Assembly: GCA_963714885.1 (NCBI GenBank)
Contig: CAVQQV010000034.1
Span: 8,702 to 72,701, forward strand
Direction: 5' to 3'
Origin: Candidatus Sulfomarinibacteraceae bacterium
GTDB lineage: Bacteria > Acidobacteriota > Thermoanaerobaculia > Thermoanaerobaculales > Sulfomarinibacteraceae
DNA length: 64,000 nucleotides
Under the pieces are notes generated by a model. The model searched no databases and was not told the DNA's origin. It was given only the letters and a program-made list of their open reading frames with translations. Position numbers and translations under genes: made by a program. Below are positions 49,111 through 62,066 of this stretch, piece after piece (position 1 is the first letter of the stretch; every line of letters starts with the position of its first letter).

Positions 49111-50568
49111 TCAGGCGGACGGCGGCCCGTCCTCGAGCCACCGACGGAGGAATTCGTTGCCGACGGTGTAGTGACCGGACGGGTCTCTTCGAACGAGGCC
49201 GAGATTTTGGAGATTCGCCAGACTCGTACGGGCCTCGGTCGGTGGATCCGGCGGGGCGCCGCCAGCCGATTTCAGCTCGGATGCGGGATTGGTGGCGAGT
49301 TGGATCAGAATGGCGCGCTCGGCCTCGTTGATGAGATTGAAATCGACCGAGAAAAAGAACGACACCGCGCGGTCGTTGTGGACCTCTTCGATCGCATCGT
49401 CAAGAGTGCCGTGATCGAGTGCGTGGCGACACAACATCTGGATCAGGTAGGGGTGGTCTCCGCAGAGGTCTCGGATGCGTTCGATGTGCCGATCGGCGAA
49501 ATCCGGCCGTGAAGCCTCCGGGAGCTGCGTCTGAAGAATCAGAGCGCGGGCGTCGTCGACATCGAGGGGACCAATCGCAAGCGGTGGTGTGAATCCGTCA
49601 AGAAACGGGGAGGTGTCCTCGCCGGCATCGGCAAGCTTCCACAATCGGCTGCTCGAGGCCAATACCGAGCGGATGCCCTCCCGCGACTGCAGCGCCCGAC
49701 GCAGCTTTCTCAGCAGCGAGGGGTCCTGGCGGTTGAGGTTGATCAACTCCTCCACTTCATCGCACAGGAGCAACAGGCGCAGGTTTTTCGCAAGTAGCGC
49801 TCGTCGCATCCTGGCCAGTGAGTCGAAGCAGTCCTCCGACTGAATTTCTGCCAACGGGATGCCCGCCCCCTCGAGGTGCTCTTCAGCGTCGAGCAGTGCA
49901 TCTGCAAAATCGAGGTGGAACTCTTCGGGCCGGTCCGCTCCCTGGAGGTCCCAGAAGACGGGAACAAACCCGAGATCCGGTGAGGTCGCCGCGATCAGTT
50001 CCAGCTGCTTGAGCAGCGAGGTCTTGCCGATCCTGCGGGTTCCGAGCAACCACAACCAGTTTCGATTCCCCACGAGCACTTCGTGGATCGCGGCCTTTCT
50101 TCCATAGAACCTCTCACCGCGAACCCACTGTCCGATCACGTACGGCAGCGGGACCTCGCCGGTGCGATGGGCGGACTCGGACTGTCGTGAGAGGACCGGC
50201 CCTCCACCGCGGTGGTTCTCGTACTCGACGTCGGCGATCAACCGATAGCCCCGCTTCGAAATCGTCTCGATATAGCGAGGGCTCTTGACGTCGTCGCCAA
50301 AGGCGCGCCGCAGCCCGGCAATGGATCGTGTGATCACCGACTCGGTGATAAAGACGTCGGACCACACCGCATCGGTGATTTCGTTTTTGGAGACGACCCG
50401 CCCGGCGTTCGACGCCAGAAACACCAGAACATCCATCAGCTTGGGTTCGAGTTGGATCACCTGAGCCTCTTGCGAAAGCCGGTTGAGGCTCGGTTGGACG
50501 AGCCAGTCGGAAATTCTGAATTCAGCGGCGGCGGGCGGCTCGGAATTTTTATAGCGGTCCATTTCCAC
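49111..50568 (-). CDS. OmpR/CadC-type winged-helix DNA-binding domain fused to a STAND-like P-loop NTPase (module 1, output = DNA binding)
   Basis: N-terminal Trans_reg_C pattern: IQLEPKLMDVLVFLASNAGRVVSKNEITDAVWSDVFITESVITRSIAGLRRAF..IETISKRGYRLIA. Then GQWVRGERFYGRKAAIHEVL, Walker A LLGTRRIGKTSLLKQLE, Walker B LLLLCDEVEEL, and a C-terminal winged-helix-like LQNLGLVRRDPSGHYTVGNEFLRRWLED. The core is paralogous to that of 57012..58928. Confidence 0.8.
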   Translation of the reverse strand: MEMDRYKNSEPPAAAEFRISDWLVQPSLNRLSQEAQVIQLEPKLMDVLVFLASNAGRVVSKNEITDAVWSDVFITESVITRSIAGLRRAFGDDVKSPRYIETISKRGYRLIADVEYENHRGGGPVLSRQSESAHRTGEVPLPYVIGQWVRGERFYGRKAAIHEVLVGNRNWLWLLGTRRIGKTSLLKQLELIAATSPDLGFVPVFWDLQGADRPEEFHLDFADALLDAEEHLEGAGIPLAEIQSEDCFDSLARMRRALLAKNLRLLLLCDEVEELINLNRQDPSLLRKLRRALQSREGIRSVLASSSRLWKLADAGEDTSPFLDGFTPPLAIGPLDVDDARALILQTQLPEASRPDFADRHIERIRDLCGDHPYLIQMLCRHALDHGTLDDAIEEVHNDRAVSFFFSVDFNLINEAERAILIQLATNPASELKSAGGAPPDPPTEARTSLANLQNLGLVRRDPSGHYTVGNEFLRRWLEDGPPSA

Positions 50569-50573
50569 GCATT

Positions 50574-51284
50574 CTATCCCGGACTCGCGTCGGAGAGAGG
50601 GTCGACGCCGACGGGCGCTATCCGAATTTCCTCGAAGAAGTTGTACCAGGGGCTGCCCTCCTCGACCCAGTGTTTGTCGATTTCGACCGCCGTCGCCACC
50701 ATGACCAATGCACCATCGAGACTCATCATGAAGAGACTCCTCACCCTCTGGGTGGTCCGTGGCGTGTAGTGGTTGAGTTCGTCAATCCCGTCGACCAGCA
50801 ACACCAGCCGGGGGCGTCCACCTTCGCGTTTCTTGAGCGCGCGGATGATCCTGCGCAGATCGTGCGCGAGATCGCGGTGGCCGTAGCCGGTGTGAGTACC
50901 CTCGGGACCCGCCAAGTGTTCGGGCCGGAGCTGATCGAAAACGGCCCCACTCACTGTCGAAAACAGCACGTTTTCTGGAATGCTGCGCAGGTTGACGTAG
51001 ACGGGGAAAAAGGTGCTGGTGCCTCTGCCTGCCGACAGACGGTCTTTGAGATCGAGAAGGATAGCTGTTTTTCCGCTCCCGGGCGGTCCACAGAGCAGAA
51101 TGCTGTTGTTGTGGATCGTGCTCAAGATGCGCTGGGTCAAACGCTCGGACCAATGATCGACCCGCGCCGGTCCAGAAGGTGTCATCTCCTCTCGACCGTG
51201 TCCGCCGAAACGGCGCACAAAGCGGGCGATGGCAAACGCGGAAGTGCGAACGATGTTCATTGGTCGGTTCTTTCGTCTGCCCAC
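50574..51284 (-). CDS. Stand-alone P-loop ATPase of the 'SPWYNFFEE' type (module 1 partner)
   Basis: RILSTIHNNSILLCGPPGSGKTAILLDL (Walker A), LVLLVDGIDEL (Walker B), and the C-terminal EGSPWYNFFEEI. It is a paralogue of the cytoplasmic domain of 58912..61311 but lacks the signal, TPR and TM parts and ~65 C-terminal aa. The start is GTG 51284 or ATG 51260. Its stop lies 5 nt before the next start. Confidence 0.7.
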   Translation of the reverse strand: MGRRKNRPMNIVRTSAFAIARFVRRFGGHGREEMTPSGPARVDHWSERLTQRILSTIHNNSILLCGPPGSGKTAILLDLKDRLSAGRGTSTFFPVYVNLRSIPENVLFSTVSGAVFDQLRPEHLAGPEGTHTGYGHRDLAHDLRRIIRALKKREGGRPRLVLLVDGIDELNHYTPRTTQRVRSLFMMSLDGALVMVATAVEIDKHWVEEGSPWYNFFEEIRIAPVGVDPLSDASPG

Positions 51285-51353
51285 AGACAGGACGACTTCA
51301 GGGTCGAATCCTCCTCTCCCTCTCTAAACTAGGCAGAGGGGGATCGAGAGTCT

Positions 51354-51399
51354 TGAGGGTGTGATGAGGCTCCGATGAGGATTTTCCTCGTGCTAGGAT
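51354..51399 (+). promoter_or_regulatory. Three TGAGG direct repeats at 11-bp phasing plus a conserved -10-like block upstream of FadL-like gene 1
   Basis: TGAGG occurs at 51354, 51365 and 51376, exactly 11 nt apart. TAGGAT (51394-51399) starts 18 nt after the last repeat start. ATG follows at 51412. The block TGAGGaTTTtCCtCGTGcTAgGATC is 20/25 identical to the block at 55625-55649. Confidence 0.55.
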
Positions 51400-51411: not shown

Positions 51412-52794
51412 ATGGTGGGCCCGGGCGCTGTTGACACAACCATGCAAGCTCGACTTCGACTCATGCTGCTCGCTTTGGTGGCCATCGCGCCGGCGATGAC
51501 TTCCGCCCAGGAGACCCCTGCCACCTTCGAGTTCAGCTTCTCAAACCCCGGAGCGCGCAGCCTGGGTCTCGGCGGCGCGTTTGCAGCCTTTGCCGACGAC
51601 GCGACCGCCGCCTTTTCCAACCCCGCCGGTCTGGTCCAGCTCGTCCGGCCGGAGGTGTCAGCAGAGCTTCGTCATTGGCGATACACGACGCCATACATCG
51701 AGGGAGGGCGATATGAGGGCGAGCCGACGGGGATCGGTCTCGATACCACCAGCGGTCTTCGAGCTTCGGAATCCGAAGAACAGCTGACAGGGCTGTCCTT
51801 CCTGTCGTTTGTGTATCCAAAAGGGAAGTTCTCCCTCGCGGTCTACCAGCATCAGTCGGCGAAATTCAAGGCCGAGACCGAAACCCAGGGTTTGTTTCAC
51901 ACCGGCGGCACCGGCACCGGGGTCTTTCGAACCCATGACCGTCGGTGGTCGACCGATCTCGATATCGTCAGCTATGGCCTGGCGGGCGCCTACAGGGTCA
52001 GCGATCACCTGAGTGTCGGTCTGGGTCTGGTGTACTTCGAGGGACGGCTGGACGCCCCGTTCGAGTGGACCTTTTTCGACGACTCAACGCTCGATGGCTT
52101 TTATGGACCGAACTCCTACCTGCCGGAGCGACGGCTGGTCACTGGAGACATGGCGATCGATGATTCCGACTGGGGGTTGAATGCGGGTCTTCTGTGGACC
52201 TTCGCCGAACGTTGGAGCCTCGGCGCCTTTTACCGCCAGGGGCCTGAGTTCGGTGTGGTGTACGGTGTTGTTGCCGGACCCATAGCCCCCCTGTTCGAGC
52301 CGGCGCTCACGGAAGGTGCGACAGTGCTGACGATCTCGACACCGATGCAGTTCCCGGACGTGTACGGTCTCGGTCTGGCCTACAGATCGAGCGACGGCAA
52401 GCTCGCGGTTGGCTTCGAGTGGGATCGCGTCGAGTACTCATCGATCTTCGGCAGCTTCGATCCGGTGGTCATCGAAAGTATCGATGACGACCTCGATCTC
52501 GGCATCGAGTTGGTGGCTGAAGACGGCGACGAGTTCCATCTCGGTGCGGAATACGCGTTTCTCGATCTCAAACCCGTGATCGCGGTCCGTGCGGGTGTCT
52601 GGCTCGATCCCGATCACCGTTTCCACAGCATCAGTACCGACCCGGAGCACCAGGCCCTGTTCCAGGCCGGGCAGGACGAGGTTCATCTGGCCCTGGGAAT
52701 CGGGCTCGCCTTTTCGTCGTTTCAGATTGACCTGGCAGCCGACTTTTCGGACCTCGTTGACACCTTCTCGTTGTCGGCGATCTACAGCTTTTGA
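51412..52794 (+). CDS. FadL/TodX-family-like outer-membrane beta-barrel (paralogue 1)
   Basis: Signal peptide LMLLALVAIAPAMTSAQ. N-terminal family motif FSFSNPGARSLGLGGAFAAFADDATAAFSNPAGL. Alternating beta-strand pattern. C-terminal beta-signal SLSAIYSF. Confidence 0.75.
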   Translation: MVGPGAVDTTMQARLRLMLLALVAIAPAMTSAQETPATFEFSFSNPGARSLGLGGAFAAFADDATAAFSNPAGLVQLVRPEVSAELRHWRYTTPYIEGGRYEGEPTGIGLDTTSGLRASESEEQLTGLSFLSFVYPKGKFSLAVYQHQSAKFKAETETQGLFHTGGTGTGVFRTHDRRWSTDLDIVSYGLAGAYRVSDHLSVGLGLVYFEGRLDAPFEWTFFDDSTLDGFYGPNSYLPERRLVTGDMAIDDSDWGLNAGLLWTFAERWSLGAFYRQGPEFGVVYGVVAGPIAPLFEPALTEGATVLTISTPMQFPDVYGLGLAYRSSDGKLAVGFEWDRVEYSSIFGSFDPVVIESIDDDLDLGIELVAEDGDEFHLGAEYAFLDLKPVIAVRAGVWLDPDHRFHSISTDPEHQALFQAGQDEVHLALGIGLAFSSFQIDLAADFSDLVDTFSLSAIYSF

Positions 52795-52973: not shown

Positions 52974-55541
52974 CTACCGTTTCATGGAGATGGCTGTGCC
53001 GTCGTTGGTGCGGTTGTCGATGACCGACGCGTAGGCGATCAGCCCCTGCCCGGACTGGACGTGGACCGTTGCATAGCCGGCGTCGATGTCGGTACGGCCC
53101 GCGATGCGGGCGAACGGTTCCTGCAGCTGCAGCCACCCACCGGGCCCCAGGGTCCTCGATCGTGACGCCAGCTCGACTCCGGAGCTGTCGAAGAACGTCA
53201 CCCGCATACGCGCCTCGGTCTCGCCGGTGTTGACGAGACCGACATTGGTTCGGAAGAGGTCGTTTTGCAGCAGGTGCGGCAGCCAGACCGTGCCTCCCTC
53301 CCGGCAACTGTCCGCTCCTGAAATGCCGTCGAGAAACAAACCATAGGTGCCGAAGTCGCTCGCGTTGTAGGTTCGAGACGCGACCATGACCGGGCTCGAA
53401 GACTGAATCTCCACCGAACCGGAACCCTCCGCGCCGACCGAGGCCACGACGTCGCCGATCGTCCGTTGCTCGCCATCGTCAAGGGTCACGACAACGTTGC
53501 TGGAGGTCCCATTGTCGCCACGAAAACGAACGTCAACGGTCGCGGTTTCGCCGGAGCGATTGAGGAGACTGAGGTCTGTGCGCCACTGGCTCTCATGGGC
53601 ACCCTCGCCGTGGACGGCGGCCGCGATCCACTGCAGATGATGCCCCTGGCCGGTTTTCATCGGAATCGAGGTGGGGTCCCCGGTCACATTGTCGATGACC
53701 GATGCAGAGGCGTAGACATCCTGCCCCGAGACCACCGTGATCACGGCATAACCGGAGGCGACGTCGTCGCGGTGGCCGAGCTTGAAAAACGGTCGGTTGA
53801 GCTGCACCGTCTGCTGGGGCGCGATCTCCCTGGTATGGCCGGTGATCAGCGAGCCGTCGCCGTCAAACAGAGCGATCTCGACGACCGCCGACCGCCGCCA
53901 CTGATTGTGAATGCCGATGTTGGTGCGAGCTGCGTCGTCCTCCTGCAGCTGCATCAGCACCGCCGATTCGCCGGACTCGAGGCCACCGGTGGCGGTCACA
54001 CCGTCGAGGGACTGGCCGAATGTTCCATCGATGGACTGGTTGTAGGTTCTCGAGGTCACGGTGAGGCCCTCCGATGAGAAGACCTGGAGAGGGCCGGAAC
54101 CGCTCCGGCCAAACCACTCGACCGCGTCCGAAATCACGCGCGATTCTCCGGGCGCCAGCTCGACCTCGCGATCGACCGGTTGATTGCCACGGTGAAGCCT
54201 CAGACGGACGACGTTTGTCCTTGACGACCGGTTGAGCAGACCGACGTCGGAGCGCCAGGTGCTGTCCCCGACGCCGTCGGCATGAGCGACGGCAGGAATC
54301 CACGATTCGGCCGTCGCCGAGCCCACGGGCTCGGTGGAGATGCAGACCGTTTCCCAGAGATCATGGTCGGGCCACGATGTGATTTCGGGGAAGTCGATGG
54401 TCGGAGCGATGGGGTCTTTGTTGGTGAATATGACGAAGACGATGCCGTCCGAGCGCCACACGGCGAGAGTGTGGACGCCGCCGCCTCCCCCTCCGTGGCC
54501 GAAGACCTGGTGTTGATCGTTCGGATTCGTGAGCCAGCCGACGGTGTGGCCGGAATTGGTGAAAAAGTCCTCATTGACCCAGCCGCGTCCGTATCCCACT
54601 TCTTCTCCTGCGGCGAATGGAATAGACAGCATCTGATCGACCGTCCCGTTGTCGAGCAGACCGCTGGCCTCAGGGTCGTCGAAGAGCGCGGAATAGACCC
54701 GCGCCAGGTCGGGGGCGGACATCACCATGAGGCCGGCCGCGAAGGCGTTCTCGGTGATCACCGCGTAGGGATCACCTTCGAGACCGTCGTAGGTCGTCTC
54801 GGTGGGGGCCAGATCGGAGGGGAGAGTGTGGGGGAGGCGGGCACGAGACACGCCGACGGGCCGGAAGATGTTCTCGAAGACAAATTCCGGAAAGTCCTGA
54901 CCGGTGACCTGCTCGACCAGCATGCCGAGCATGATGTAGCCGTAGTTGTTGTAGTCCCACGCCGTCCCGGAATCAAAGAGGAACGGATTGGCAACGATGT
55001 AGGATGCGATTTCCTTCCTCGTGGTTGGCTGCCCGACGCCGTGGGCGGCGGCGACCACACCGTCCACCTCATAGATGTTGTCTTCCGAGTACATGCCGCT
55101 CGTGTGGGTCAACATATGGTCCACGGTCACCGAGTCGAGGCGCGGGTCCACCCGCCAGTCCCACAGTGGATCCACTTCGAGTCCGGACATGACCTCCGTG
55201 TCGTAGGAGAGTGTTCCGTCTTCGATGAGCTGATGGACAGCGATCGAGGTGATCGATTTGCTGATGCTGGCGATGCGAAACAGGGTGGTGGGTTGGATGG
55301 GCTCAACGGAGGGGTCGTCCCAGGTGAATCCCCTTGCGTAGACGAGACGGCCGTCTTTTGCGATCGCCACCGAGCTGCCGCGGATAGAGTGGGTCTGCAT
55401 GATGTCCTGCATCATCAGGTCCACCGCGGACAGTTCGGGGATCGCCTGTCCGGTGACACTCCACTGACGCTGGGCGGCCGCGGCGGCAGCCACCATCAAC
55501 AGGGCTATGAGAACGGTGACGGTCTTTTTCGTGGTTTGCAT
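52974..55541 (-). CDS. Secreted beta-lactamase-fold (class C / family VIII esterase-like) serine hydrolase fused to four copies of an unassigned ~105-aa beta-sandwich-like repeat
   Basis: ATG 55541 follows GAGGGGG. Signal peptide VLIALLMVAAAAAAQ. S-x-x-K motif (FRIASISKSITS), Y-x-N motif (WDYNNYGY) and a third box (VFGHGGGGGG). The C-terminal ~440 aa are repeats (see the repeat feature). Confidence 0.75.
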   Translation of the reverse strand: MQTTKKTVTVLIALLMVAAAAAAQRQWSVTGQAIPELSAVDLMMQDIMQTHSIRGSSVAIAKDGRLVYARGFTWDDPSVEPIQPTTLFRIASISKSITSIAVHQLIEDGTLSYDTEVMSGLEVDPLWDWRVDPRLDSVTVDHMLTHTSGMYSEDNIYEVDGVVAAAHGVGQPTTRKEIASYIVANPFLFDSGTAWDYNNYGYIMLGMLVEQVTGQDFPEFVFENIFRPVGVSRARLPHTLPSDLAPTETTYDGLEGDPYAVITENAFAAGLMVMSAPDLARVYSALFDDPEASGLLDNGTVDQMLSIPFAAGEEVGYGRGWVNEDFFTNSGHTVGWLTNPNDQHQVFGHGGGGGGVHTLAVWRSDGIVFVIFTNKDPIAPTIDFPEITSWPDHDLWETVCISTEPVGSATAESWIPAVAHADGVGDSTWRSDVGLLNRSSRTNVVRLRLHRGNQPVDREVELAPGESRVISDAVEWFGRSGSGPLQVFSSEGLTVTSRTYNQSIDGTFGQSLDGVTATGGLESGESAVLMQLQEDDAARTNIGIHNQWRRSAVVEIALFDGDGSLITGHTREIAPQQTVQLNRPFFKLGHRDDVASGYAVITVVSGQDVYASASVIDNVTGDPTSIPMKTGQGHHLQWIAAAVHGEGAHESQWRTDLSLLNRSGETATVDVRFRGDNGTSSNVVVTLDDGEQRTIGDVVASVGAEGSGSVEIQSSSPVMVASRTYNASDFGTYGLFLDGISGADSCREGGTVWLPHLLQNDLFRTNVGLVNTGETEARMRVTFFDSSGVELASRSRTLGPGGWLQLQEPFARIAGRTDIDAGYATVHVQSGQGLIAYASVIDNRTNDGTAISMKR
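52977..54302 (-). repeat. Intragenic tandem duplication: 2 x ~216 aa, each made of two related ~105-aa units
   Basis: Unit 1 (54302-53655) and unit 2 (53630-52977) align as follows. WIPAVAHADGVGDSTWRSDVGLLNRS..VTSRTYNQS.DGTFGQSLDGV...DDAARTNIGIHNQ...ASGYAVITVVSGQDVYASASVIDNVTGDPTSIPMK versus WIAAAVHGEGAHESQWRTDLSLLNRS..VASRTYNASDFGTYGLFLDGI...NDLFRTNVGLVNT...DAGYATVHVQSGQGLIAYASVIDNRTNDGTAISMK. Confidence 0.65.
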
Positions 55542-55591
55542 GGCGAACCCCCTCGTCTCCATCAATGTGGGGTTTCGACAGCGCCAGCGCT

Positions 55592-55648
55592 TGAGGGAAT
55601 ACTGAGGTCGCCGTGAGGGTCTTTTGAGGCTTTCCCCCGTGTTACGAT
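55592..55648 (+). promoter_or_regulatory. Four TGAGG direct repeats at 11-bp phasing plus a conserved -10-like block upstream of FadL-like gene 2
   Basis: TGAGG occurs at 55592, 55603, 55614 and 55625, exactly 11 nt apart. TACGAT (55643-55648) starts 18 nt after the last repeat start. ATG follows at 55656, only 7 nt after the hexamer. The same intergenic region serves the divergent beta-lactamase-fold gene. Confidence 0.55.
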
Positions 55649-55655
55649 CCACACC

Positions 55656-57005
55656 ATGAACCGCGTGGATCGTAATCTGTTCCGTGGTTCTGTGACGCGG
55701 TGTTTCGTGCTCATGGTCGCTGCCGCTGCGGCACAGCTGATGCCGAGATATTCGGTGGCGCAGGAAGCGCCCCCCGCGCTCGAGTTCAGCTTTTCCAATC
55801 CCGGCGCCCGGAGCATGGGTTTGGGCGGCGCATTCGTCGCTTTGGCCGATGACGCAACCGCCGCCTTTGCCAACCCGGCCGGTCTCGTTCAGTTGCTGCG
55901 GCCCGAGGTGTCACTCGAGTTGAGGAGGCGGAATTACTCGACCCCATACACTGAGGGGGGACGAGCCTCGGGTTCGCCAACCGGATTCGGTATCGATACC
56001 GTCGATGGTGTTCGAACCGCAACCTCGAACGAGACGACGTCTGGAGTGTCCTTTCTCTCATTCGTCTATCCGGGCACGAAGTGGTCGCTGGCCCTGTATC
56101 GACATCAGCTCGCTGATTTTTCGGTGAGTACGGAAATCAACGGTCTCTTCGGCGACGCCATTGAGGGCGGAACCAGGCGCTACGAAGACCAGCCGATAAC
56201 CACCGATCTCGAAATCGTCGGAACTGGCCTCTCGGGCGCCTACCAGGTGAGTGAACGTCTCAGCGTCGGGTTCGGGCTGACGTACTTCGCGGGCAGCGTC
56301 GAGAATCATGGGGCGGCCTACTCTGTCGACAGCTTCCCGGAGACCTATTGGGACGAGAATTCGTTTCTACCCCACAGACAGATTGTGACCAGCAGCTTCG
56401 TAGTTGATGAAACGGACATCGGGTTCAACGTCGGCTTCCTGTGGCAGTTCGCCGAGAGCTGGCGCCTCGGGGGCGTGTATCGGCAGGGACCGCGATTCGA
56501 CTACGAGCTCTACAATCGCGCCGGACCCCTCAACGATGAGCCAGAGGGGACCGTCCTCGAGGCCGTGACCGACCGCTCCATCGCCTTTCCGGATGTGTGG
56601 GGATTGGGCGTCGCCTACCGATCGCCGAATGGGAGTCTGACCGTCGGTTTCGAGTGGGATCTGGTCGAGTACTCGGTGATTCTGGAGACGCTTGATTCCG
56701 AGCAGGTCGACACGACGGATGTTGCAATGGACGACGCGAACGAGCTGCACCTCGGGTTCGAGTACGTGTTTCTGAAAACGAAACCTCTGATCGCGGTTCG
56801 CGCCGGGCTGTGGCGCGATCCGGACCACCGGTTTCGATATGAAGGCGACGATCCGTTCGCAAGTGCTCTGTATCAGCCCGGAAAGGACTCGTTGCACGTC
56901 ACCGTCGGCGTTGGGGTTGCATTCAAGAGTTTTCAAATCGACCTCGGGGCCGACCTCTCGGATCGTGCCGACGTCTTGTCGCTGTCAGCGATCTACAGTT
57001 TCTGA
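55656..57005 (+). CDS. FadL/TodX-family-like outer-membrane beta-barrel (paralogue 2)
   Basis: Signal peptide. FSFSNPGARSMGLGGAFVALADDATAAFANPAGL, and the C-terminal VLSLSAIYSF. It is collinear with 51412..52794 throughout. Confidence 0.75.
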   Translation: MNRVDRNLFRGSVTRCFVLMVAAAAAQLMPRYSVAQEAPPALEFSFSNPGARSMGLGGAFVALADDATAAFANPAGLVQLLRPEVSLELRRRNYSTPYTEGGRASGSPTGFGIDTVDGVRTATSNETTSGVSFLSFVYPGTKWSLALYRHQLADFSVSTEINGLFGDAIEGGTRRYEDQPITTDLEIVGTGLSGAYQVSERLSVGFGLTYFAGSVENHGAAYSVDSFPETYWDENSFLPHRQIVTSSFVVDETDIGFNVGFLWQFAESWRLGGVYRQGPRFDYELYNRAGPLNDEPEGTVLEAVTDRSIAFPDVWGLGVAYRSPNGSLTVGFEWDLVEYSVILETLDSEQVDTTDVAMDDANELHLGFEYVFLKTKPLIAVRAGLWRDPDHRFRYEGDDPFASALYQPGKDSLHVTVGVGVAFKSFQIDLGADLSDRADVLSLSAIYSF

Positions 57006-57011
57006 TCCTGT

Positions 57012-58928
57012 CTATCGGAGCCCGGCCGCTATGCGCCGGAGGGCCTCCTCAACCTGCACCGCACTCGAAATCCGTTCCGCCGGGTCCTTGGCGAGGCAGC
57101 GCAAGGTGAGGGCTGCGAGCTCCCCCGGAATTCCAGGCGCGATCGTCGACGGGTCGGGGGGGAGGGCGGTGCGCTGCATGGCAAGAACCTCAGCCACAGT
57201 GTTGGCCTCGAACGGCCGCCGGCCGGTTGCCATCTCGAAGATCACGAGCCCCAGCGCATAGAGATCGGATCTTTCGTCGAGCGGGCCCAGGGCGACCTGT
57301 TCGGGCGACGCGTAATGTGGCGTGCCGACAAACACGCCGTGCTGGGTGAGGCCCTGCTCACCGATCAAACGGGCAAGGCCGAAATCGGCGAGGTACGGTT
57401 CGCCATCCTCATCCATCAGGATGTTGCCGGGTTTGACGTCGCGGTGAAGGACGTTTCGTTCGTGTGCGGATGCCAGTGCCGATGCGAGCTTCGAAGAAAT
57501 ACTGAGAACCACCGGCACCGGAAGCGCCCCACACTCCGAGATTCTGTCGGCGAGCGTCCCTCCGTTGATCCACTGCATGGTGATGTATGTTCCGCCCTCA
57601 TACGAGGCCAGGTGATAGGCACGGAGGATGTTGGGGTGGGCGAGATCACGTGACAGAAGGATCTCCTGTCGCACCCGATCGAGCGCTGAGGGGTTGGCCG
57701 TGTACTCCGGTTTGAGCAGCTTGAGAGCAACCCAGGTGTCGAGCATGGTGTCGCGGGCCTTGAAAACGCTGCCGGTCGCTCCCGTGCCGACTTCCTCGTG
57801 CAGTGTGTACCGGCTGTCGATGGTCCTCAGAGATATCGTGAGGTCCCCGCTTATCGAGGCAGACTGTGGCGGAGGTGCCTGTGGCGCGGTGTCCAGATCT
57901 TCGAGCCAGCGCCGCATGAAAAAACTCGGCAGCACATAGCTCCGGTCCTCATCGCGACCGATGAAACCGAGGTTTTCGAGCCGCTGCAGGGCGTCGTCCC
58001 GGTCGGCGGTGTCGGCCTTCATCACGGCGTGAAGTGATGCATCGGTAGCCCTCTCTTGCTCGGCAATCAACCGGAGGACCGTCTTCTCGGTGGCAGACAG
58101 CATCTCGAAATCGACCGAAAAGAAGTAGTTGATCATGCGATCGGTGGCGACCTGGCGACAGGCTTCGTCGAAATCGCCGGTCTCCAGGAAGCGTTTGCAG
58201 ACCAGCTGGACCAGGTAGGGGTGGTTGCCGCAGCGGAGACAGATTTCGATCGCGTCTTTCTCGCCGATCTCCGGCCGAGATTCCGGTGTGGTGTGGTCCT
58301 GTCGAACGAGGGCGAGGCTTTCGTCGGTGGAGAGGCCGTTGATGTAGAGCGGTGGGCTGAAGCCATGGAGGAATGGCGATGTGTCGCCCCTCTGTTCCGA
58401 GAGTTCGCACAGCCGGACCGACGAGGTGAGCACCGAACGAACACCCTCCTGGGACTGCATGGCGCGCCGAAGTTTGCGCAACAGCGCGGGATCCTGGCGG
58501 TGGAGATTGAGGAGTTCCTCGACCTCGTCGCAGAGGAGGAGGAGCGAGCGCCCCTGGCTCGTGAGCAGGCGGCGGAGTCTGGCCATCGAACTGAAGAGGT
58601 CCCCGCTTTCGAAATCGGAGATTTGAATGCCAATATCGCCGAACCTTTCTTCGGCGTCGAGCAGGGCGTCCGAAAAGCTGAGATGGAGTTCTTCCGGGTC
58701 GTCGGCTCCCTGAAAATCCCAGAAGATCGGGACGTACTCTCGCCCGTCGGACGTGGCCAGAAACTCGAGTTGTTTGAGCAGGGACGTCTTGCCGATCCTT
58801 CGAGTGCCCAGGATCCAGAGCGAGTTTCGAGGACCGTCGAGGATTTCCTCGATCAGACCGCTCCGCCCATAGAAACGATCACCGCGGACCCACTGGCCGA
58901 CCACGAAGGGGTTAGGTCCTGGCTTCAT
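57012..58928 (-). CDS. STAND-like P-loop NTPase fused to a C-terminal Hanks-type Ser/Thr protein kinase (module 2, output = kinase)
   Basis: ATG 58928. The core is GQWVRGDRFYGRSGLIEEIL, ILGTRRIGKTSLLKQLE, LLLLCDEVEEL and LENLGFIGRDEDRSYVLPSFFMRRWLED. The kinase has VGTGATGSVFKA (G-loop), WVALKLL, HRDVKPGNIL, LADFGLAR and GTPHYASPEQ. The first 50 aa of the track ORF are over-extension. Confidence 0.85.
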   Translation of the reverse strand: MKPGPNPFVVGQWVRGDRFYGRSGLIEEILDGPRNSLWILGTRRIGKTSLLKQLEFLATSDGREYVPIFWDFQGADDPEELHLSFSDALLDAEERFGDIGIQISDFESGDLFSSMARLRRLLTSQGRSLLLLCDEVEELLNLHRQDPALLRKLRRAMQSQEGVRSVLTSSVRLCELSEQRGDTSPFLHGFSPPLYINGLSTDESLALVRQDHTTPESRPEIGEKDAIEICLRCGNHPYLVQLVCKRFLETGDFDEACRQVATDRMINYFFSVDFEMLSATEKTVLRLIAEQERATDASLHAVMKADTADRDDALQRLENLGFIGRDEDRSYVLPSFFMRRWLEDLDTAPQAPPPQSASISGDLTISLRTIDSRYTLHEEVGTGATGSVFKARDTMLDTWVALKLLKPEYTANPSALDRVRQEILLSRDLAHPNILRAYHLASYEGGTYITMQWINGGTLADRISECGALPVPVVLSISSKLASALASAHERNVLHRDVKPGNILMDEDGEPYLADFGLARLIGEQGLTQHGVFVGTPHYASPEQVALGPLDERSDLYALGLVIFEMATGRRPFEANTVAEVLAMQRTALPPDPSTIAPGIPGELAALTLRCLAKDPAERISSAVQVEEALRRIAAGLR

Positions 58929-61311
58929 CGATTCCCGCGACCGCATCGACGTCGGCGGTCGTGATCTGCCGTCGTCCCTCCTCGTACATCCGGTTGACGA
59001 GAGCGATGCAGAGCCTTTGAACCCGGTACGGTTTGCGGTCGGTGAGCTCGATGATGCTGTCGACCACGGCACCGTCAAACTTGAAAACCCCGCCGGTCGG
59101 TCGTGTGATCAAGTCGATCGCGTGGTCCCGCTCGATCGGCGTGACCTCGATCTCCTCGAAGAAGTTGTACCAGGGGCTGCCTTCTTTGTCCCACTGCTTG
59201 CGGATCTCGACTCCCGAGACCACCGCGACGAGGTTTTCGGCAAAACTCTTCATGAAAAGGCTTCTCAGACGTTGGTTGACACGGGGGTCGTAGGCATTGA
59301 GTTCGTCGACCTCGTCGATGAGAAGCACCAGCTTGACCTGCTTTTCGCTTCTGGCCTTGAGGGCCTTGATCACCTTCCGGAGATCGTGCACCAGTTCGCG
59401 GTAGCCATAGACCGATCCCTGGGGAACATCAGCACCGACCGTCGCACCGTCGAGCAGTGGGGCCAGCTCGTGAAAGATGTCTTCAGCCAGGGTGGAGAAA
59501 AACTGCGACTCGGGGGTTCCCTGGAGATCGATATAGACCGGGTAGAACGCGTACTGCGGGTCGTCGAGCTCGAGCAGCCGCCGCCTGATGTGGTGTTGCA
59601 GCGAGGTCTTGCCGATTCGGCGTTCGCCGTACAACAGAAGACTGTTGTTGTGGATGGTCTGCAGGATCCTCTCGACAAGTTGTTCCCTTCCAAAGAACAT
59701 TTCACGATCGAGCACCGGCGCGCCGGCGATGTAGGGGTTGAATCGCCGCGTGATGAGCTGGCGCCGGCGTCTGGCCCGGAACGCCCAGACTCCGGCGAGA
59801 ACGGCGATCGGCAGCGCGGCTATCACGAGTTGGAACCAGAGTGATCTGTAGAACGGCACCGCGTAAAGGACGGTGTACTCTGCGCTCGAACTCAGACCGG
59901 CGCTGTCGGTGGCGGTGAGGGAGTAGACCGACCATCCTGAGCGGAGACGCTCGGTGAGCGTGAACTCGGTGACGAAGTACTCGCCCACAGCCTGGCTGGT
60001 GCTGTGTCCTTCGATCTGCCGGCCTTCAGGGCCCTGGAATCGGATGTCGACTGGAGAGTTGTCGATCACCACGCCATTCAGGCGAAAGTCCGGTGTCCTC
60101 ACAACCTGGATCTTCATCCCGTCGGGCTGGTCGCTTCTGAAATCGGCGAAGCGAATCGCGGGGGGGATATTTTCGACAGTTCGCGATCCAAGCAGCCGGC
60201 TGCTGATCTCGCCGTAGGCTCTGCGGACCTGTCCGAGAGCCGCGACGTTTCCCGGGTCGATCGCGAGCACGCGGTTGGACGCCGAAATGGCGGCCTCGAA
60301 CTCGCCGGCCGCGTACAAACTGACGGCTTCCTGGAGCGTGCTGTTCAGGGACTCCTGAACGACAATCCTCTTTTGAGCCTCGAGGATTCGGCGCTGAATC
60401 TCGGCTGCCGCTGCGTTTGTCGGATCGGCTGCGAGAACTCTCTGGAGTTGGTCGAGGGCCGCGGAGAACCGCCCTGACTGTTCGAGGTCTCGAGCCTGGC
60501 TCAACCCTGTCGTGACCGCGGCCTGCCGTGCGCCCGCATCTTCCTCGGCCCGGATCTCTGCCGCGAGGCCGGCCCGCGCCTGATCGAGAAGTTGTTGGGC
60601 CGTTGTGTCTGGTTGCAGCGAAAGGGCCTGTTGGAACAGGCTCGATGCCTCCGCGAAGTTGCCGTCGTCGAGGTCAGCTCTGCCGCGGCTGATCAGATCC
60701 GCCGCCCGGGCGCCGTCGAGTCGTTGGCGCTCCCGCCGAACGACCTCGGTCCGCAGTTCCTGCATCTTGGCGGTTGCGTCGGGGTTTTCCTGGTCCACGG
60801 CGAGACCCTCACCGAGAGCATCCATGGCTGCCTCGAGCCGGCCCTGACGCTCGAGAATCTCGGCCTCCCGGAGGCTTTCACGGACGATCTGCGATGTGCG
60901 CTCGCTCTCCATGTTGGCGACGTCCTCGCGTGCGTTGAGGGCCAACTGTCGGAATCGTTGCAGCTCCTCCATGTCCGTTTTCGAGGCTTGAATCGCGCCC
61001 AGTTGCTCCTCGGTCTGAAATGCCTGCAGCGCGGCTTCGTACTGCCCGAGATGGTGGTAGGCGATGCCGAGCTTGAGGTAGGGAAAGTACGCGACAACCT
61101 TCATCCCGTACGAACGGACTCGTGCTCCCGAGTCGCCCTTACGCTCGAGGGCCTGTTGGAGCTCCTCGACGGCGTCGCCCCATTTCCCATCGGCAAGGGC
61201 GGCTTCGGCCCGTGCATAGTGCTCGTACCAGTAGTCGGCCCAGGCGGTCGGGGCGGGCGCCCATAACGTGCACACGATCACCGCGTATGCAACCAGCACG
61301 CGACCTTTCAT
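58912..61311 (-). CDS. Membrane sensor-like protein: signal peptide, TPR-rich ectodomain, Ig-like segment, one TM helix, cytoplasmic 'SPWYNFFEE'-type P-loop ATPase (module 2 partner)
   Basis: ATG 61311 (MKGRVLVAYAVIVCTLWAPAPTAWA). TPR-like repeats (YFPYLKLGIAYHHLGQYEAALQAF, ..AEASSLFQQALSLQPD.., AISASNRVLAIDPGN). TM helix LWFQLVIAALPIAVLAGVWAF followed by RARRRRQ. ATPase: RILQTIHNNSLLLYGERRIGKTSL, LVLLIDEVDEL and EGSPWYNFFEEI. It overlaps the kinase gene start by 17 nt. Confidence 0.8.
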   Translation of the reverse strand: MKGRVLVAYAVIVCTLWAPAPTAWADYWYEHYARAEAALADGKWGDAVEELQQALERKGDSGARVRSYGMKVVAYFPYLKLGIAYHHLGQYEAALQAFQTEEQLGAIQASKTDMEELQRFRQLALNAREDVANMESERTSQIVRESLREAEILERQGRLEAAMDALGEGLAVDQENPDATAKMQELRTEVVRRERQRLDGARAADLISRGRADLDDGNFAEASSLFQQALSLQPDTTAQQLLDQARAGLAAEIRAEEDAGARQAAVTTGLSQARDLEQSGRFSAALDQLQRVLAADPTNAAAAEIQRRILEAQKRIVVQESLNSTLQEAVSLYAAGEFEAAISASNRVLAIDPGNVAALGQVRRAYGEISSRLLGSRTVENIPPAIRFADFRSDQPDGMKIQVVRTPDFRLNGVVIDNSPVDIRFQGPEGRQIEGHSTSQAVGEYFVTEFTLTERLRSGWSVYSLTATDSAGLSSSAEYTVLYAVPFYRSLWFQLVIAALPIAVLAGVWAFRARRRRQLITRRFNPYIAGAPVLDREMFFGREQLVERILQTIHNNSLLLYGERRIGKTSLQHHIRRRLLELDDPQYAFYPVYIDLQGTPESQFFSTLAEDIFHELAPLLDGATVGADVPQGSVYGYRELVHDLRKVIKALKARSEKQVKLVLLIDEVDELNAYDPRVNQRLRSLFMKSFAENLVAVVSGVEIRKQWDKEGSPWYNFFEEIEVTPIERDHAIDLITRPTGGVFKFDGAVVDSIIELTDRKPYRVQRLCIALVNRMYEEGRRQITTADVDAVAGIDEART

Positions 61312-61440
61312 GTCGGAGCAACGCACCGGATGACGGTCACCGGCCTTCCGAGCCTGAGGCGCAACGGCGTCATGTGTGTGCATACGCTATCCCGCGTCGA
61401 GTGTAACAGGCGACACGAAGGCGATGGATCGTCGCGCGGC

Positions 61441-61475: not shown

Positions 61476-62059
61476 ATGACGGATGTATCGACCAAGCTCG
61501 ACGTGGACGGCATGACCCTCGACCTCGTCGTGGTTCGGAAGACGGGTGAAAAACATCAACGCGCGGCTCAACGGCTCGACGCTTTCGGTCAGCGCGCCGC
61601 ACCGTGTTTCCCGAGGCGAGGTTCGCTCCGTGGCGGTGGAGCTCGCGCGGCGTTTGCTCCGCCGCGCCCGCGCCGACGCCGTCAACGGCGACGACTCGGG
61701 CAGGATTGTCGCTCAAAAGGTCGCAGCGAAGTTTCCGAAACCGCCCCGGGTGACCGAGGTCCGGTTCTCGACCAACCAGCGCTCGCAGTGGGGGAGCTAC
61801 AGCCCGCGAACCGGGGTCATTCGGCTCAACGCGGTGCTCAAGGTGATGCCGCCGTGGGTCCTCGAGGCGGTTGTGGCGCACGAACTGGCGCACTCGGTCC
61901 ACCCCGACCACTCGCTGGCGTTCTGGAAACTGGTGCGGTCGATCTGCCGCCACACCGATCGCGCGAATGCTTTTCTGGAGGGTGTCGGCTGGTTGGCCTC
62001 GTCGTGGGATGATCTGGAGCCCGCCGAGAGATCGCAGCTGGCTGGAAGAGGTAATCTGA
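61476..62059 (+). pseudogene. YgjP/DUF45 (WLM/SprT-like) HExxH metal-dependent hydrolase, at least one frame change; 3' end uncertain
   Basis: MTDVSTKLDVDGMTLDLVVVRKT joins VKNINARLNGSTLSVSAPHRVSRGEV... at ~61543, in a G-run. The motif VVAHELAHSVHPDHSLAFWKLV is the DUF45 signature. The track frame runs on to 62310, 244 nt into the convergent MttB gene. A second +1 shift would end it at TGA 62057-62059, so I give that end with low confidence. Confidence 0.55.
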
Positions 62060-62066
62060 AGCTCAC

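What the first reader, a model, noticed from the sequence alone, without database searches (positions are those of the whole stretch)
55592..55648. Four TGAGG direct repeats with exact 11-bp phasing upstream of FadL-like gene 2
In the 114-bp divergent intergenic region, TGAGG occurs at 55592, 55603, 55614 and 55625, which is one helical turn apart. It is followed by a block (TGAGGcTTTcCCcCGTGtTAcGATC) that recurs upstream of the paralogous gene at 51376. OmpR/PhoB-family winged-helix domains classically bind tandem direct repeats with ~10-11-bp periodicity that overlap or replace the -35 region (the pho box is an example). The only such DNA-binding domain in the locus is on the STAND ATPase 49111..50568. 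This gives a concrete, testable regulator-operator pairing for the candidate system.
Basis: partly seen in the sequence, partly recalled or inferred. Interest (0 to 1): 0.72.

Follow-up and report, generated by a model that had tools for sequence, protein, structure and literature searches.

The report
Phased TGAGG operator for STAND regulator
The four evenly spaced TGAGG repeats are real, conserved across species, and most likely form the docking track for the neighbouring DNA-binding ATPase that switches on two outer-membrane channel genes; this is a well-supported prediction of a familiar type of genetic switch in uncultured sediment bacteria.

Summary
Observation confirmed. TGAGG occurs at 55592, 55603, 55614 and 55625, exactly 11 bp apart. 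It occurs three times at 51354, 51365 and 51376 upstream of the paralogous FadL-like gene. Shuffled sequence gives no such triples. In both places the last repeat is followed by 9 nt and an extended -10 (TGnTAnGAT), with no -35. The FadL2 ATG lies 7 nt after the -10, so the mRNA is probably leaderless.

The array is conserved upstream of FadL1 and FadL2 orthologues in every related Sulfomarinibacteraceae-type cassette I could fetch. Pentamers and the -10 are conserved while spacers drift. In 1.13 Mb of related loci, the relaxed pattern occurs only at these cassettes or next to homologues of the same regulator in Woeseiaceae (Gammaproteobacteria).

The regulator 49111..50568 holds the only Trans_reg_C domain in the window. 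It is CadC/ToxR-like and fused to a STAND-like P-loop NTPase, with no BTAD, TPR or membrane segment.

Best reading: a head-to-tail oligomer occupies 3-4 sites on one DNA face and activates the promoter in place of a -35, as PhoB and SARP/AfsR do. It probably also controls the divergent gene. Binding itself is untested. The mechanism is textbook, so interest is moderate.

The parts
55592..55635 (+). F2 operator. It consists of four 11-bp direct-repeat units with TGAGG cores at 55592, 55603, 55614 and 55625. In orthologues the first core is usually TGATG.
55640..55648 (+). Extended -10 of the FadL2 promoter, TGtTACGAT (hexamer 55643-55648). No -35 match lies 16-18 bp upstream. The ATG at 55656 lies 7 nt after the hexamer, so a leaderless mRNA is inferred.
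55656..57005 (+). FadL/TodX-family outer-membrane channel gene 2 (FadL2), the forward target of the F2 operator.
55564..55569 (-). Conserved -10-like hexamer (CACATT on the minus strand). It lies 22 nt from the first repeat and 22 nt from the divergent ATG, with a GGGGG/GAGG ribosome-binding site between. It is the inferred promoter of the divergent hydrolase gene.
52974..55541 (-). 855-aa secreted beta-lactamase-fold serine hydrolase gene, divergent from FadL2. It is a probable second target of the F2 array.
51354..51386 (+). F1 operator. It consists of three 11-bp direct-repeat units with TGAGG cores at 51354, 51365 and 51376.
51391..51399 (+). Extended -10 of the FadL1 promoter, TGcTAGGAT (hexamer 51394-51399). 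It has the same 9-nt spacing from the last repeat as in F2.
51326..51331 (-). Conserved -10-like hexamer (TAGTTT on the minus strand; TAGCTT in orthologues), 22 nt from the first F1 repeat. It is the inferred promoter of the divergent P-loop gene / regulator operon.
51412..52794 (+). FadL/TodX-family outer-membrane channel gene 1 (FadL1), 53% identical to FadL2. The start may instead be the ATG at 51442.
49111..50568 (-). Candidate cognate regulator. Its layout is a CadC/ToxR-like wHTH (aa 17-116), a disordered linker, a STAND-like P-loop NTPase, a helical domain and a C-terminal winged helix. The likely true start is the ATG at 50562.
50571..50576 (-). The regulator's own conserved -10 (TAGAAT within GGGATAGAAT), 8 nt before the ATG at 50562. 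It overlaps the stop codon of the upstream P-loop gene. A leaderless mRNA is inferred.
50574..51284 (-). 236-aa AAA_16/NACHT-like P-loop protein encoded immediately upstream of the regulator. It is paralogous to the C-terminal part of the TPR-STAND protein at 58912..61383.

Best explanation
The TGAGG arrays are operators: three (F1) or four (F2) head-to-tail binding sites, one per helical turn. They are recognised by the N-terminal CadC/ToxR-type winged helix of the STAND-like NTPase encoded at 49111..50568. When the NTPase module oligomerises (signal unknown, inferred), protomers line one face of the DNA from about -61 to -26. The promoter-proximal protomer sits where a -35 element is missing, next to an extended -10 (TGnTAnGAT). 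It recruits or stabilises RNA polymerase, which is class-II / sigma-adaptation type activation as in PhoB and SARP/AfsR. Transcription then starts about 7 nt after the -10, giving a leaderless or short-leader mRNA for the FadL-like outer-membrane channel. The distal repeat lies a fixed 22 nt from a divergent -10-like hexamer. The same array therefore probably also controls the divergent gene: the secreted beta-lactamase-fold hydrolase at F2, and the P-loop/regulator operon at F1.

Shown: the sequence architecture, its conservation, its rarity, and its co-occurrence with the regulator family.

Inferred: binding by this protein, activation rather than repression, oligomer stoichiometry, and bidirectionality.
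For: (1) Exact phasing at two paralogous promoters, with zero expected by chance.

(2) Conservation in orthologous cassettes of other species (L001-L009, L013, L034, L040, L046) and in 17 metagenome contigs. Ungapped alignment of the unique instances shows near-maximal information at the pentamers and at GTGnTAnGAT, and low information in most spacers.

(3) The paralogous proteins are only 53% identical, yet the operator/-10 block matches at 20 of 25 positions.

(4) There is no -35. The promoter scan finds no canonical promoter at the conserved position, and the hexamer 17 bp upstream of the -10 is TCTTTT in the window and TCTGTT in the consensus.

(5) ATG lies exactly 7 nt after the hexamer in 8 of 29 unique instances, against about 0.5 expected. 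This supports the -10 assignment and the transcription start.

(6) Across 76 genome loci: array and wHTH-STAND together in 11; wHTH-STAND only in 8, of which the seven gammaproteobacterial loci carry degenerate phased repeats beside the regulator gene and L046 carries them upstream of its FadL gene and beside the hydrolase gene; array only in 3, all cut by contig ends; neither in 54. Fisher p = 3e-6, though the loci are not phylogenetically independent.

(7) Independent clade. In Woeseiaceae loci, 46-51% identical wHTH-STAND homologues have GCGCTTGATG-N5-TTGATn-N6-TGATn arrays with the same 11-bp period in the divergent region next to the regulator gene. The recognition helix differs between clades: ITESVITRSIAGLRR against VTEHTLSRCIYQLR.

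(8) This is the only Trans_reg_C domain in the window. The wHTH matches CadC 5ju7 (E 1e-23) and ToxR-DNA complexes at TM 0.87.

(9) The geometry matches published SARP promoters: 11-bp direct repeats, with the 3' repeat 8 bp from the -10. Here the unit TTGAGGCTTTC ends 8 bp before TACGAT (PMC10936776).

(10) L034 and L046 lack FadL2, yet they keep the four pentamers next to the divergent hydrolase gene while the spacers and the -10 have changed.
Against: There is no binding, footprint, transcription-start or expression data. Co-occurrence is largely explained by synteny of a single inherited cassette, with effectively two independent clades. An extended -10 can work without a -35, so the promoter could be constitutive and the array could repress it. 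The ATPase Pfam hits are below the curated cut-offs (nSTAND1 23.6 bits against 27.1; ATPase_2 24.4 against 33.2) and the model has a mean pLDDT of only 67.6, so 'STAND' rests on sub-threshold profile hits and on fold matches with low TM-scores (0.2-0.4). In the gammaproteobacterial loci the array is not adjacent to a -10 and the FadL operon carries a different upstream box. The target and mode are therefore not conserved across phyla. Whole genomes could not be scanned, so other regulators and other targets cannot be excluded.
Confidence: 0.62

Rival explanations
1. The array is a real operator, but the bound wHTH-STAND represses. It would occlude the -35 to -60 region of an extended -10 promoter that is active on its own, and a signal would release it.
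For: The promoter has TGn plus TAnGAT with the key A-11 and T-7. Such promoters can work without a -35 (established knowledge). The sites overlap the region RNA polymerase must occupy.
Against: Characterised relatives with N-terminal wHTH domains and direct repeats in this position are activators: CadC, ToxR at ompU, PhoB and SARP/AfsR (PMC10629549; PMC10936776). The proximal repeat sits in the same register as activator sites, 8 bp from the -10. The hexamers match TATAAT at only 4 of 6 positions, whereas the regulator's own promoter is TAGAAT at 5 of 6.
Confidence: 0.2
2. The array is bound by a different OmpR/PhoB-family protein encoded elsewhere in the genome, for example a classical two-component response regulator. 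The neighbouring wHTH-STAND would then have other targets.
For: Only 64 kb of the genome is visible. OmpR-family response regulators are numerous and bind 10-11-bp direct repeats.
Against: The array is found only where a wHTH-STAND gene is in the same cassette. It is absent from 54 FadL-homologue loci that lack the gene. A related array sits next to homologous regulator genes in another phylum. This fits a local dedicated regulator.
Confidence: 0.12
3. The repeats are not a protein operator. They could be a slippage-generated tandem repeat, a DNA-curvature element, or an RNA-level element such as SD-like GAGG motifs in a 5' UTR.
For: Perfect 11-bp TGAGG-containing satellites are common in metagenomes. 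GAGG resembles a Shine-Dalgarno core.
Against: Spacers differ between units and drift between species while the pentamers stay fixed, which is the opposite of a satellite. A conserved extended -10 lies downstream of the repeats, and the ATG follows 7 nt later, so the repeats are upstream of the transcript. There is no Rfam match in the window. There are no A-tracts.
Confidence: 0.04

Closest known systems
SARP / AfsR-type activators and their direct-repeat boxes (the afs box of Streptomyces coelicolor; PMC10936776)
   Same: The OmpR-type wHTH is N-terminal. In AfsR it is fused to a STAND NTPase. The sites are 11-bp direct repeats on one DNA face. The 3' repeat is 8 bp from the -10 and covers the region of a poor or absent -35. 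A Ser/Thr kinase is present in the same regulatory neighbourhood (AfsK for AfsR; STAND-kinase 57012..59078 here).
   Different: There is no BTAD domain and no TPR sensor. The wHTH belongs to the CadC/ToxR subgroup. There are three to four repeats instead of two. The core is TGAGG rather than TCGAG-like. The promoter has an extended -10. The host is Acidobacteriota, not Actinobacteria. The ATPase resembles archaeal ATPase_2 / Orc-like folds.
PhoB and the pho box
   Same: Direct repeats with 11-bp periodicity, a conserved 5' part and a variable 3' part. They replace the -35, with head-to-tail wHTH protomers.
   Different: PhoB is activated by a phosphorylated receiver domain, and its wHTH is C-terminal. 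Here the wHTH is N-terminal on an NTPase, and sequence similarity to PhoB is weak (E 0.01-0.02).
ToxR / CadC one-component membrane activators
   Same: These are the closest wHTH by sequence and fold: CadC E 1e-23 with 45% identity, and ToxR TM 0.87. The domain is N-terminal. ToxR binds several tandem sites near the -35 of ompU, an outer-membrane protein gene (PMC10629549).
   Different: ToxR and CadC are membrane-anchored with periplasmic sensors. This protein has no hydrophobic segment (maximum KD19 of 1.07) and instead carries a cytoplasmic NTPase. ToxR sites are AT-rich and loosely defined, whereas these are a sharp G-rich pentamer.
MalT, the STAND transcription activator of E. coli (from my own knowledge)
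   Same: An NTP- and ligand-driven STAND oligomer that binds several short asymmetric boxes arranged as direct repeats upstream of a promoter lacking a good -35.
   Different: The MalT DNA-binding domain is a C-terminal LuxR-type HTH. The box sequence and spacing also differ.
M. tuberculosis PhoP multi-protomer activation complex (PDB 9ji5; PMC11825685)
   Same: It is a precedent for more than two OmpR/PhoB-family protomers (six) on tandem direct repeats in a transcription activation complex.
   Different: It is a response regulator, not an NTPase fusion.

Membership tests
OmpR/PhoB-superfamily winged-helix DNA-binding domain (Pfam Trans_reg_C, PF00486) | Profile match above the curated threshold, and the wHTH fold | tested here: met
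   63.5 bits against a cut-off of 26.2, E 1.9e-17, aa 36-110. The AF2 domain has pLDDT of about 85-90. Foldseek gives CadC and ToxR at TM 0.87.
SARP (Streptomyces antibiotic regulatory protein) | A BTAD (bacterial transcriptional activation domain) directly after the wHTH | tested here: not met
   No BTAD hit in Pfam at E <= 0.001. Residues 118-159 are a disordered linker followed by the P-loop domain. JGI labels a few gammaproteobacterial homologues 'SARP family', but the domain content does not support that label.
SARP / pho-box type direct-repeat promoter | At least two direct repeats at 11-bp (or 22-bp) spacing, with the 3' repeat about 8 bp from the -10 and overlapping the -35 position | tested here: met
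   Three or four repeats at exactly 11 bp. The unit TTGAGGCTTTC ends 8 bp before TACGAT. There is no -35. The criterion is taken from PMC10936776. The -10 assignment is inferred from conservation and from the ATG at +7.
SARP / pho-box type direct-repeat promoter | Demonstrated binding of the regulator to the repeats, and regulator-dependent transcription | not testable with these tools
   Needs EMSA or footprinting and a reporter or in vitro transcription.
STAND NTPase | P-loop NTPase, then a helical domain, then a winged helix, recognised by STAND profiles | tested here: inconclusive
   nSTAND1 23.6 bits (cut-off 27.1), ATPase_2 24.4 (33.2) and AAA_22 23.9 (27) are all below threshold. The model shows a P-loop, a helical domain and a C-terminal WH. 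Foldseek hits PAB2304 2qen, SSO1545 2fna, Orc2 and CED-4 with E-values of 1e-6 to 1e-4 but TM of only 0.2-0.4. Many homologues carry precomputed PF20703 and PF01637 hits.
STAND NTPase | A C-terminal sensor repeat domain (TPR, WD40 or LRR) on the same polypeptide | tested here: not met
   The protein is 485 aa and ends after the C-terminal winged helix, with no repeat domain. TPRs are on a separate protein, 58912..61383.
ToxR-like membrane one-component receptors (CadC/ToxR) | A single transmembrane helix and a periplasmic sensor after the wHTH | tested here: not met
   The maximum 19-residue Kyte-Doolittle hydropathy is 1.07, and that stretch is inside the wHTH. The C-terminal part is an NTPase.
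Known anti-phage defence systems (PADLOC) | A profile match of the cassette proteins to a defined system | tested here: not met
   Only the generic Ser/Thr kinase domain of 57012..58916 matches (PD-T4-6, mad6). The other six proteins give nothing significant.

The most novel reading that the evidence does not exclude
The array is the track for a non-SARP class of STAND transcription factor: a CadC-type wHTH, an Orc/ATPase_2-like NTPase, and a separately encoded small P-loop partner. The factor polymerises head-to-tail, one protomer per helical turn (3-4 protomers), and fires two divergent promoters at once. One drives a leaderless FadL-type outer-membrane channel. The other drives a secreted hydrolase or the regulator's own operon. 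This transcriptional branch would be the twin of a paralogous branch in the same cassette (TPR-P-loop protein plus STAND-Ser/Thr kinase). Together they would form a two-output STAND signalling module that has moved between marine-sediment Acidobacteriota and Woeseiaceae.
Probability: 0.25. Interest if true: 0.6.

Novelty: new variant of a known kind. Interest (0 to 1): 0.42.

Why it matters
It provides a precise, ready-to-test operator-regulator pair for a large and entirely uncharacterised family of wHTH-NTPase proteins. More than 1,300 clusters appear in each of two searches, all from uncultured marine-sediment Acidobacteriota and Woeseiaceae. The consensus, register, promoter and probable transcription start are all defined.

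It extends the PhoB/SARP logic of helically phased direct repeats that replace the -35 to a CadC-type wHTH on a STAND-like ATPase outside Actinobacteria. It also offers a handle on what the conserved cassette (two FadL channels, a hydrolase, and paralogous STAND pairs with a kinase) senses and does.

It does not overturn any principle. The mechanism proposed is the textbook one for this domain family.

Tried and rejected
(1) Chance. Rejected by shuffles and by absence elsewhere in 1.13 Mb of related loci.

(2) Simple tandem repeat or satellite. The metagenome scan showed that most global matches are perfect 11-bp satellites. The sites here have non-repeated, drifting spacers, so they were rejected as satellites.

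(3) RNA element. There is no Rfam hit in the whole window, and the repeats lie upstream of the inferred -10.

(4) Canonical sigma-70 promoter. The scan found none at the conserved position. Its single hit (TCGACA-17-AATACT, 55575-55603) is not conserved in orthologues.

(5) A second wHTH in the window. A weak tblastn hit near 62.8 kb lies inside an MTTB methyltransferase gene and is spurious.

(6) SARP membership. Rejected, because there is no BTAD.

(7) Known defence system. Rejected.

(8) A third target gene class with the same promoter architecture. None was seen among the 120 metagenome stretches returned.

(9) Phased repeats upstream of the more distant FadL homologues (45-53% identity). 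None were found; those loci carry other conserved boxes.

(10) Reading the conserved gammaproteobacterial TGTTCAAT box, which lies 22 nt from the array, as a divergent -10. It lacks the A at position 2, so I leave it unexplained.

(11) Literature. No paper in the library links Trans_reg_C, nSTAND and FadL, or describes this cassette.

Full report
**1. The observation**

Reading the window directly, TGAGG starts at 55592, 55603, 55614 and 55625. The 114-bp intergenic region 55542..55655 lies between a minus-strand gene (ATG at 55541) and the plus-strand FadL-like gene (ATG at 55656).

The triple pattern TGAGG-N6-TGAGG-N6-TGAGG occurs three times in the window (two overlapping at F2, one at F1), against 0.00 in 100 dinucleotide-preserving shuffles. 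Allowing two mismatches, or relaxing to TGANG, adds nothing elsewhere in 64 kb.

**2. Anatomy**

The two upstream regions align without gaps from the repeats to the start of the gene. In both, the last TGAGG is followed by 9 T/C-rich nucleotides and then GTGnTAnGAT:
- F2: TGtTACGAT at 55640-55648.
- F1: TGcTAGGAT at 51391-51399.

This is an extended -10 (TGn plus a hexamer that keeps A-11 and T-7). No -35-like hexamer lies 16-18 bp upstream. That position is occupied by the spacer and start of the last repeat (TCTTTT in the window, TCTGTT in the consensus). The promoter scan finds no canonical promoter at the conserved position.

At F2 the ATG follows the hexamer by exactly 7 nt. Across 29 unique operator instances from different species, 8 have an ATG at exactly +7, and one each at +5 and +6. 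About 0.5 would be expected by chance at one offset. This supports both the -10 assignment and a leaderless transcript.

With the hexamer at -12..-7, the pentamers sit at about -30, -41, -52 and, in F2, -63.

On the other side, a conserved hexamer lies exactly 22 nt before the first repeat in both operators. It is AATGTG at 55564-55569, which reads CACATT on the minus strand. At F1 it is AAACTA at 51326-51331, which reads TAGTTT, and TAGCTT in orthologues. At F2 it is also 22 nt from the divergent ATG, with a ribosome-binding site between. The whole 114 bp is thus accounted for as a compact bidirectional control region.

**3. The genes**

Pfam, NCBIfam and BLAST give the following cassette:
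- 49111..50568(-): Trans_reg_C wHTH plus P-loop NTPase.
- 50574..51284(-): a 236-aa AAA_16/NACHT-like P-loop protein.
- F1 operator.
- 51412..52794(+): FadL/TodX-family protein, FadL1.
- 52974..55541(-): an 855-aa beta-lactamase-fold protein.
- F2 operator.
- 55656..57005(+): FadL2, 53% identical to FadL1.
- 57012..59078(-): STAND-like NTPase plus Ser/Thr kinase.
- 58912..61383(-): TPR plus P-loop protein.

**4. Comparative evidence**

The FadL2 family is abundant in metagenomes. A genome scan returned 76 loci. The closest are Candidatus Sulfomarinibacteraceae / Thermoanaerobaculia MAGs (Acidobacteriota), which places the window's organism.

The whole cassette is syntenic in L001, L002, L005-L008, L013, L034 and L046. 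Phased TGAGG/TGATG repeats are present upstream of both the FadL1 and FadL2 orthologues in these loci.

Ungapped alignment of the unique instances gives these consensus sequences:
- F1: CTTGAGGatGgGATGAGGaTCTGaTGAGGGTTTTCCCCGTGcTACGAT.
- F2: CGCTTGATGGAatccTGAGGtCGtgATGAGGGTCTgtTGAGGCTtTtCCCCGTGCTAcGAT.

Information is near maximal at the pentamers and the -10, and low in most spacers. This is the signature of selection on the pentamers, not of recent slippage.

In 1.13 Mb of loci, on both strands, the relaxed triple TGA[GT]G x3 at 11 bp occurs only at these two cassette positions and in two gammaproteobacterial loci. With TGAnG x3, the 2x2 table of array against wHTH-STAND gene in the locus is 11 / 8 / 3 / 54, Fisher p = 3e-6:
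- The 3 array-only loci are all cut by a contig end at the place where the regulator would be.
- Of the 8 regulator-only loci, the seven gammaproteobacterial ones carry degenerate phased repeats beside the regulator gene, and L046 carries them upstream of its FadL gene and beside the hydrolase gene.

These loci are related, so the p-value overstates independence. Effectively there are two clades.

**5. The second clade**

In Woeseiaceae and other gammaproteobacterial loci, wHTH-STAND homologues (46-51% identical) sit in a different gene order: TPR-P-loop gene, DUF5666/DUF2807 secreted protein, intergenic region, wHTH-STAND, two FadL genes. The loci are L014, L018, L022, L024, L033, L036, L042, L054 and L061, plus L197, L198 and L200 fetched through the protein.

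In every one, the divergent region beside the regulator gene carries three 11-bp-phased repeats, GCGCTTGATG-acgnn-TTGATn-nnnnnn-TGATn. The first unit, GCGCTTGATG, is nearly identical to the first F2 unit of the acidobacterial cassettes. L033 has a second array next to a second DUF5666 paralogue.

The recognition helix is invariant within the acidobacterial group (ITESVITRSIAGLRR) and different in the gammaproteobacterial group (VTEHTLSRCIYQLR). This parallels the G-to-T shift at pentamer position 4. It is one contrast only, so it is suggestive rather than proof.

In the gammaproteobacterial loci the array is not followed by a -10. Their FadL operon carries a different box, CGGGAAnCCCTTATTG. 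The regulator-array association therefore travels across phyla, but the target promoters differ.

**6. Scan of metagenomes**

Most are perfect 11-bp satellites with identical spacers. All 17 with non-repeated spacers and GTGnTAnGAT are upstream of FadL1 or FadL2 homologues, usually with cassette neighbours. No third class of target was seen among the returned stretches.

**7. The regulator**

An HMM built from the family's wHTH finds a single match among all six-frame ORFs of at least 60 aa in the window. A weak tblastn hit at 62.8 kb lies inside an MTTB gene.

By sequence the domain is closest to the E. coli CadC DNA-binding domain (5ju7, E 1.3e-23) and to ToxR (E 2e-12), well ahead of PhoB (E about 0.01).

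The AlphaFold2 model (mean pLDDT 67.6) has this layout:
- A confident wHTH, aa 17-116.
- A disordered linker, aa 118-159.
- A P-loop domain.
- A helical domain.
- A C-terminal winged helix.

Foldseek matches CadC and ToxR-DNA complexes for the wHTH (TM 0.87). For the remainder it matches archaeal ATPase_2-type proteins, Orc2 and CED-4, with E-values of 1e-6 to 1e-4 but low TM-scores of 0.2-0.4.

The protein has no BTAD, no TPR and no transmembrane segment. The regulator gene has its own conserved promoter, GGGATAGAAT, 8 nt before the ATG at 50562 and overlapping the stop codon of the upstream gene.

**8. Mechanism**

The architecture matches what is published for SARP promoters: direct repeats 11 bp apart, the 3' repeat 8 bp from the -10, and a box overlapping a poor -35. 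A side-by-side wHTH dimer contacts sigma region 4 (PMC10936776). Here the 11-bp unit TTGAGGCTTTC ends 8 bp before TACGAT.

ToxR, a close wHTH relative, binds multiple tandem sites near the -35 of ompU (PMC10629549). A six-protomer PhoP activation complex is also in the PDB (9ji5).

I therefore propose head-to-tail occupancy of 3-4 sites by an NTPase-driven oligomer, and class-II-type activation of a promoter that lacks a -35. Activation rather than repression is inferred from the family's behaviour and from the site register, not shown.

**9. Bidirectionality**

L034 and L046 lack FadL2 and the STAND-kinase gene. The array there abuts the 3' end of the TPR-P-loop gene. The -10 is gone and the spacers differ between the two species, yet the four pentamers are retained next to the divergent hydrolase gene. 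Together with the fixed 22-nt distance to a divergent -10-like hexamer, this suggests the array also controls the divergent gene. At F1 that would mean autoregulation of the P-loop/regulator operon. This is an inference.

**10. Novelty and verdict**

No paper in the searchable library describes this cassette or regulator family. PADLOC matches only the generic kinase domain.

- The operator is a new instance of a well-known kind: a direct-repeat operator for an OmpR/PhoB-superfamily wHTH.
- The regulator is an uncharacterised variant: a CadC-type wHTH on a STAND-like NTPase without BTAD or TPR, and with a split P-loop partner.

Binding and the direction of regulation need experiments.

Noticed in passing
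window 49111..51284 and 57012..61383: The cassette contains two paralogous two-gene modules. The 236-aa P-loop protein (50574..51284) resembles the C-terminal part of the TPR protein (58912..61383). Residues 141-484 of the wHTH-NTPase match, at 51-54% identity, the N-terminal NTPase of the orthologous STAND-Ser/Thr kinases in related loci. The same NTPase pair thus appears to be wired to a DNA-binding output in one module and a kinase output in the other.
   Followed up: partly
window 50560..50576 (minus strand): The regulator has its own conserved promoter-like element, GGGATAGAAT, 8 nt before the ATG at 50562. It overlaps the TAG stop of the upstream P-loop gene and is conserved in all acidobacterial orthologues. 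The annotated GTG start at 50568 is probably wrong, and the mRNA is probably leaderless.
   Followed up: partly
L034 14155-14200; L046 about 14098-14140: Two related genomes lack FadL2 and the STAND-kinase gene but keep the four-repeat array, without its -10, beside the divergent hydrolase gene.
   Followed up: partly
L014, L018, L022, L024, L033, L036, L042, L054, L061, L197, L198, L200 (gammaproteobacterial loci): A homologous cassette is found in Woeseiaceae and other Gammaproteobacteria, with a different gene order and a DUF5666/DUF2807 secreted protein in place of the beta-lactamase-fold protein. The near-identical first repeat unit, GCGCTTGATG, suggests horizontal transfer of regulator plus operator between phyla.
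   Followed up: partly
Gammaproteobacterial loci, about 22 nt before the array and about 20-130 nt after it: Further conserved boxes of unknown role: TGTTCAAT (minus-strand reading) exactly 22 nt from the first repeat; CTA(A/G)GTACATCCCCGGGTTG upstream of the regulator gene and also upstream of some FadL genes; and CGGGAAnCCCTTATTG upstream of the FadL operon.
   Followed up: no
L020, L029, L041, L049 (about 150-200 nt upstream of FadL homologues); L074: More distant Thermoanaerobaculia FadL-homologue loci lack the TGAGG array. They share a (C/T)GTAACGCG box (CTGTAACGCGACATCGCGG in L049). In L074 the translated sequence just upstream of the FadL homologue looks like the C-terminal region of an ECF-type sigma factor, read by eye from the DNA and not checked against a profile. 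Related cassettes may use a different regulatory solution.
   Followed up: no
L077, L079, L082, L085, L087, L093 and many other short soil metagenome contigs: A recurrent element, AACACCTGGAGATACCTGGACTAACC(TGAGGCTAACC)n...TAGGTGTCTCCAGGTGTTCC, is an 11-bp TGAGG-containing tandem repeat flanked by inverted-repeat-like ends. It is unrelated to the operator studied here.
   Followed up: no
window 51284..51331 (minus strand): In the window the P-loop gene lacks the ATG that orthologues have about 21-22 nt after the divergent -10-like hexamer. The only in-frame start listed is the GTG at 51284, about 27 nt past the GAGGAGG ribosome-binding site. This may be a start-codon change or a mis-called start.
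   Followed up: no
window 62067..63530 (minus strand); 61546..62310 (plus strand): An MTTB-family (trimethylamine methyltransferase-like) gene and a YgjP-like metallopeptidase-domain ORF lie just beyond the cassette.
   Followed up: no
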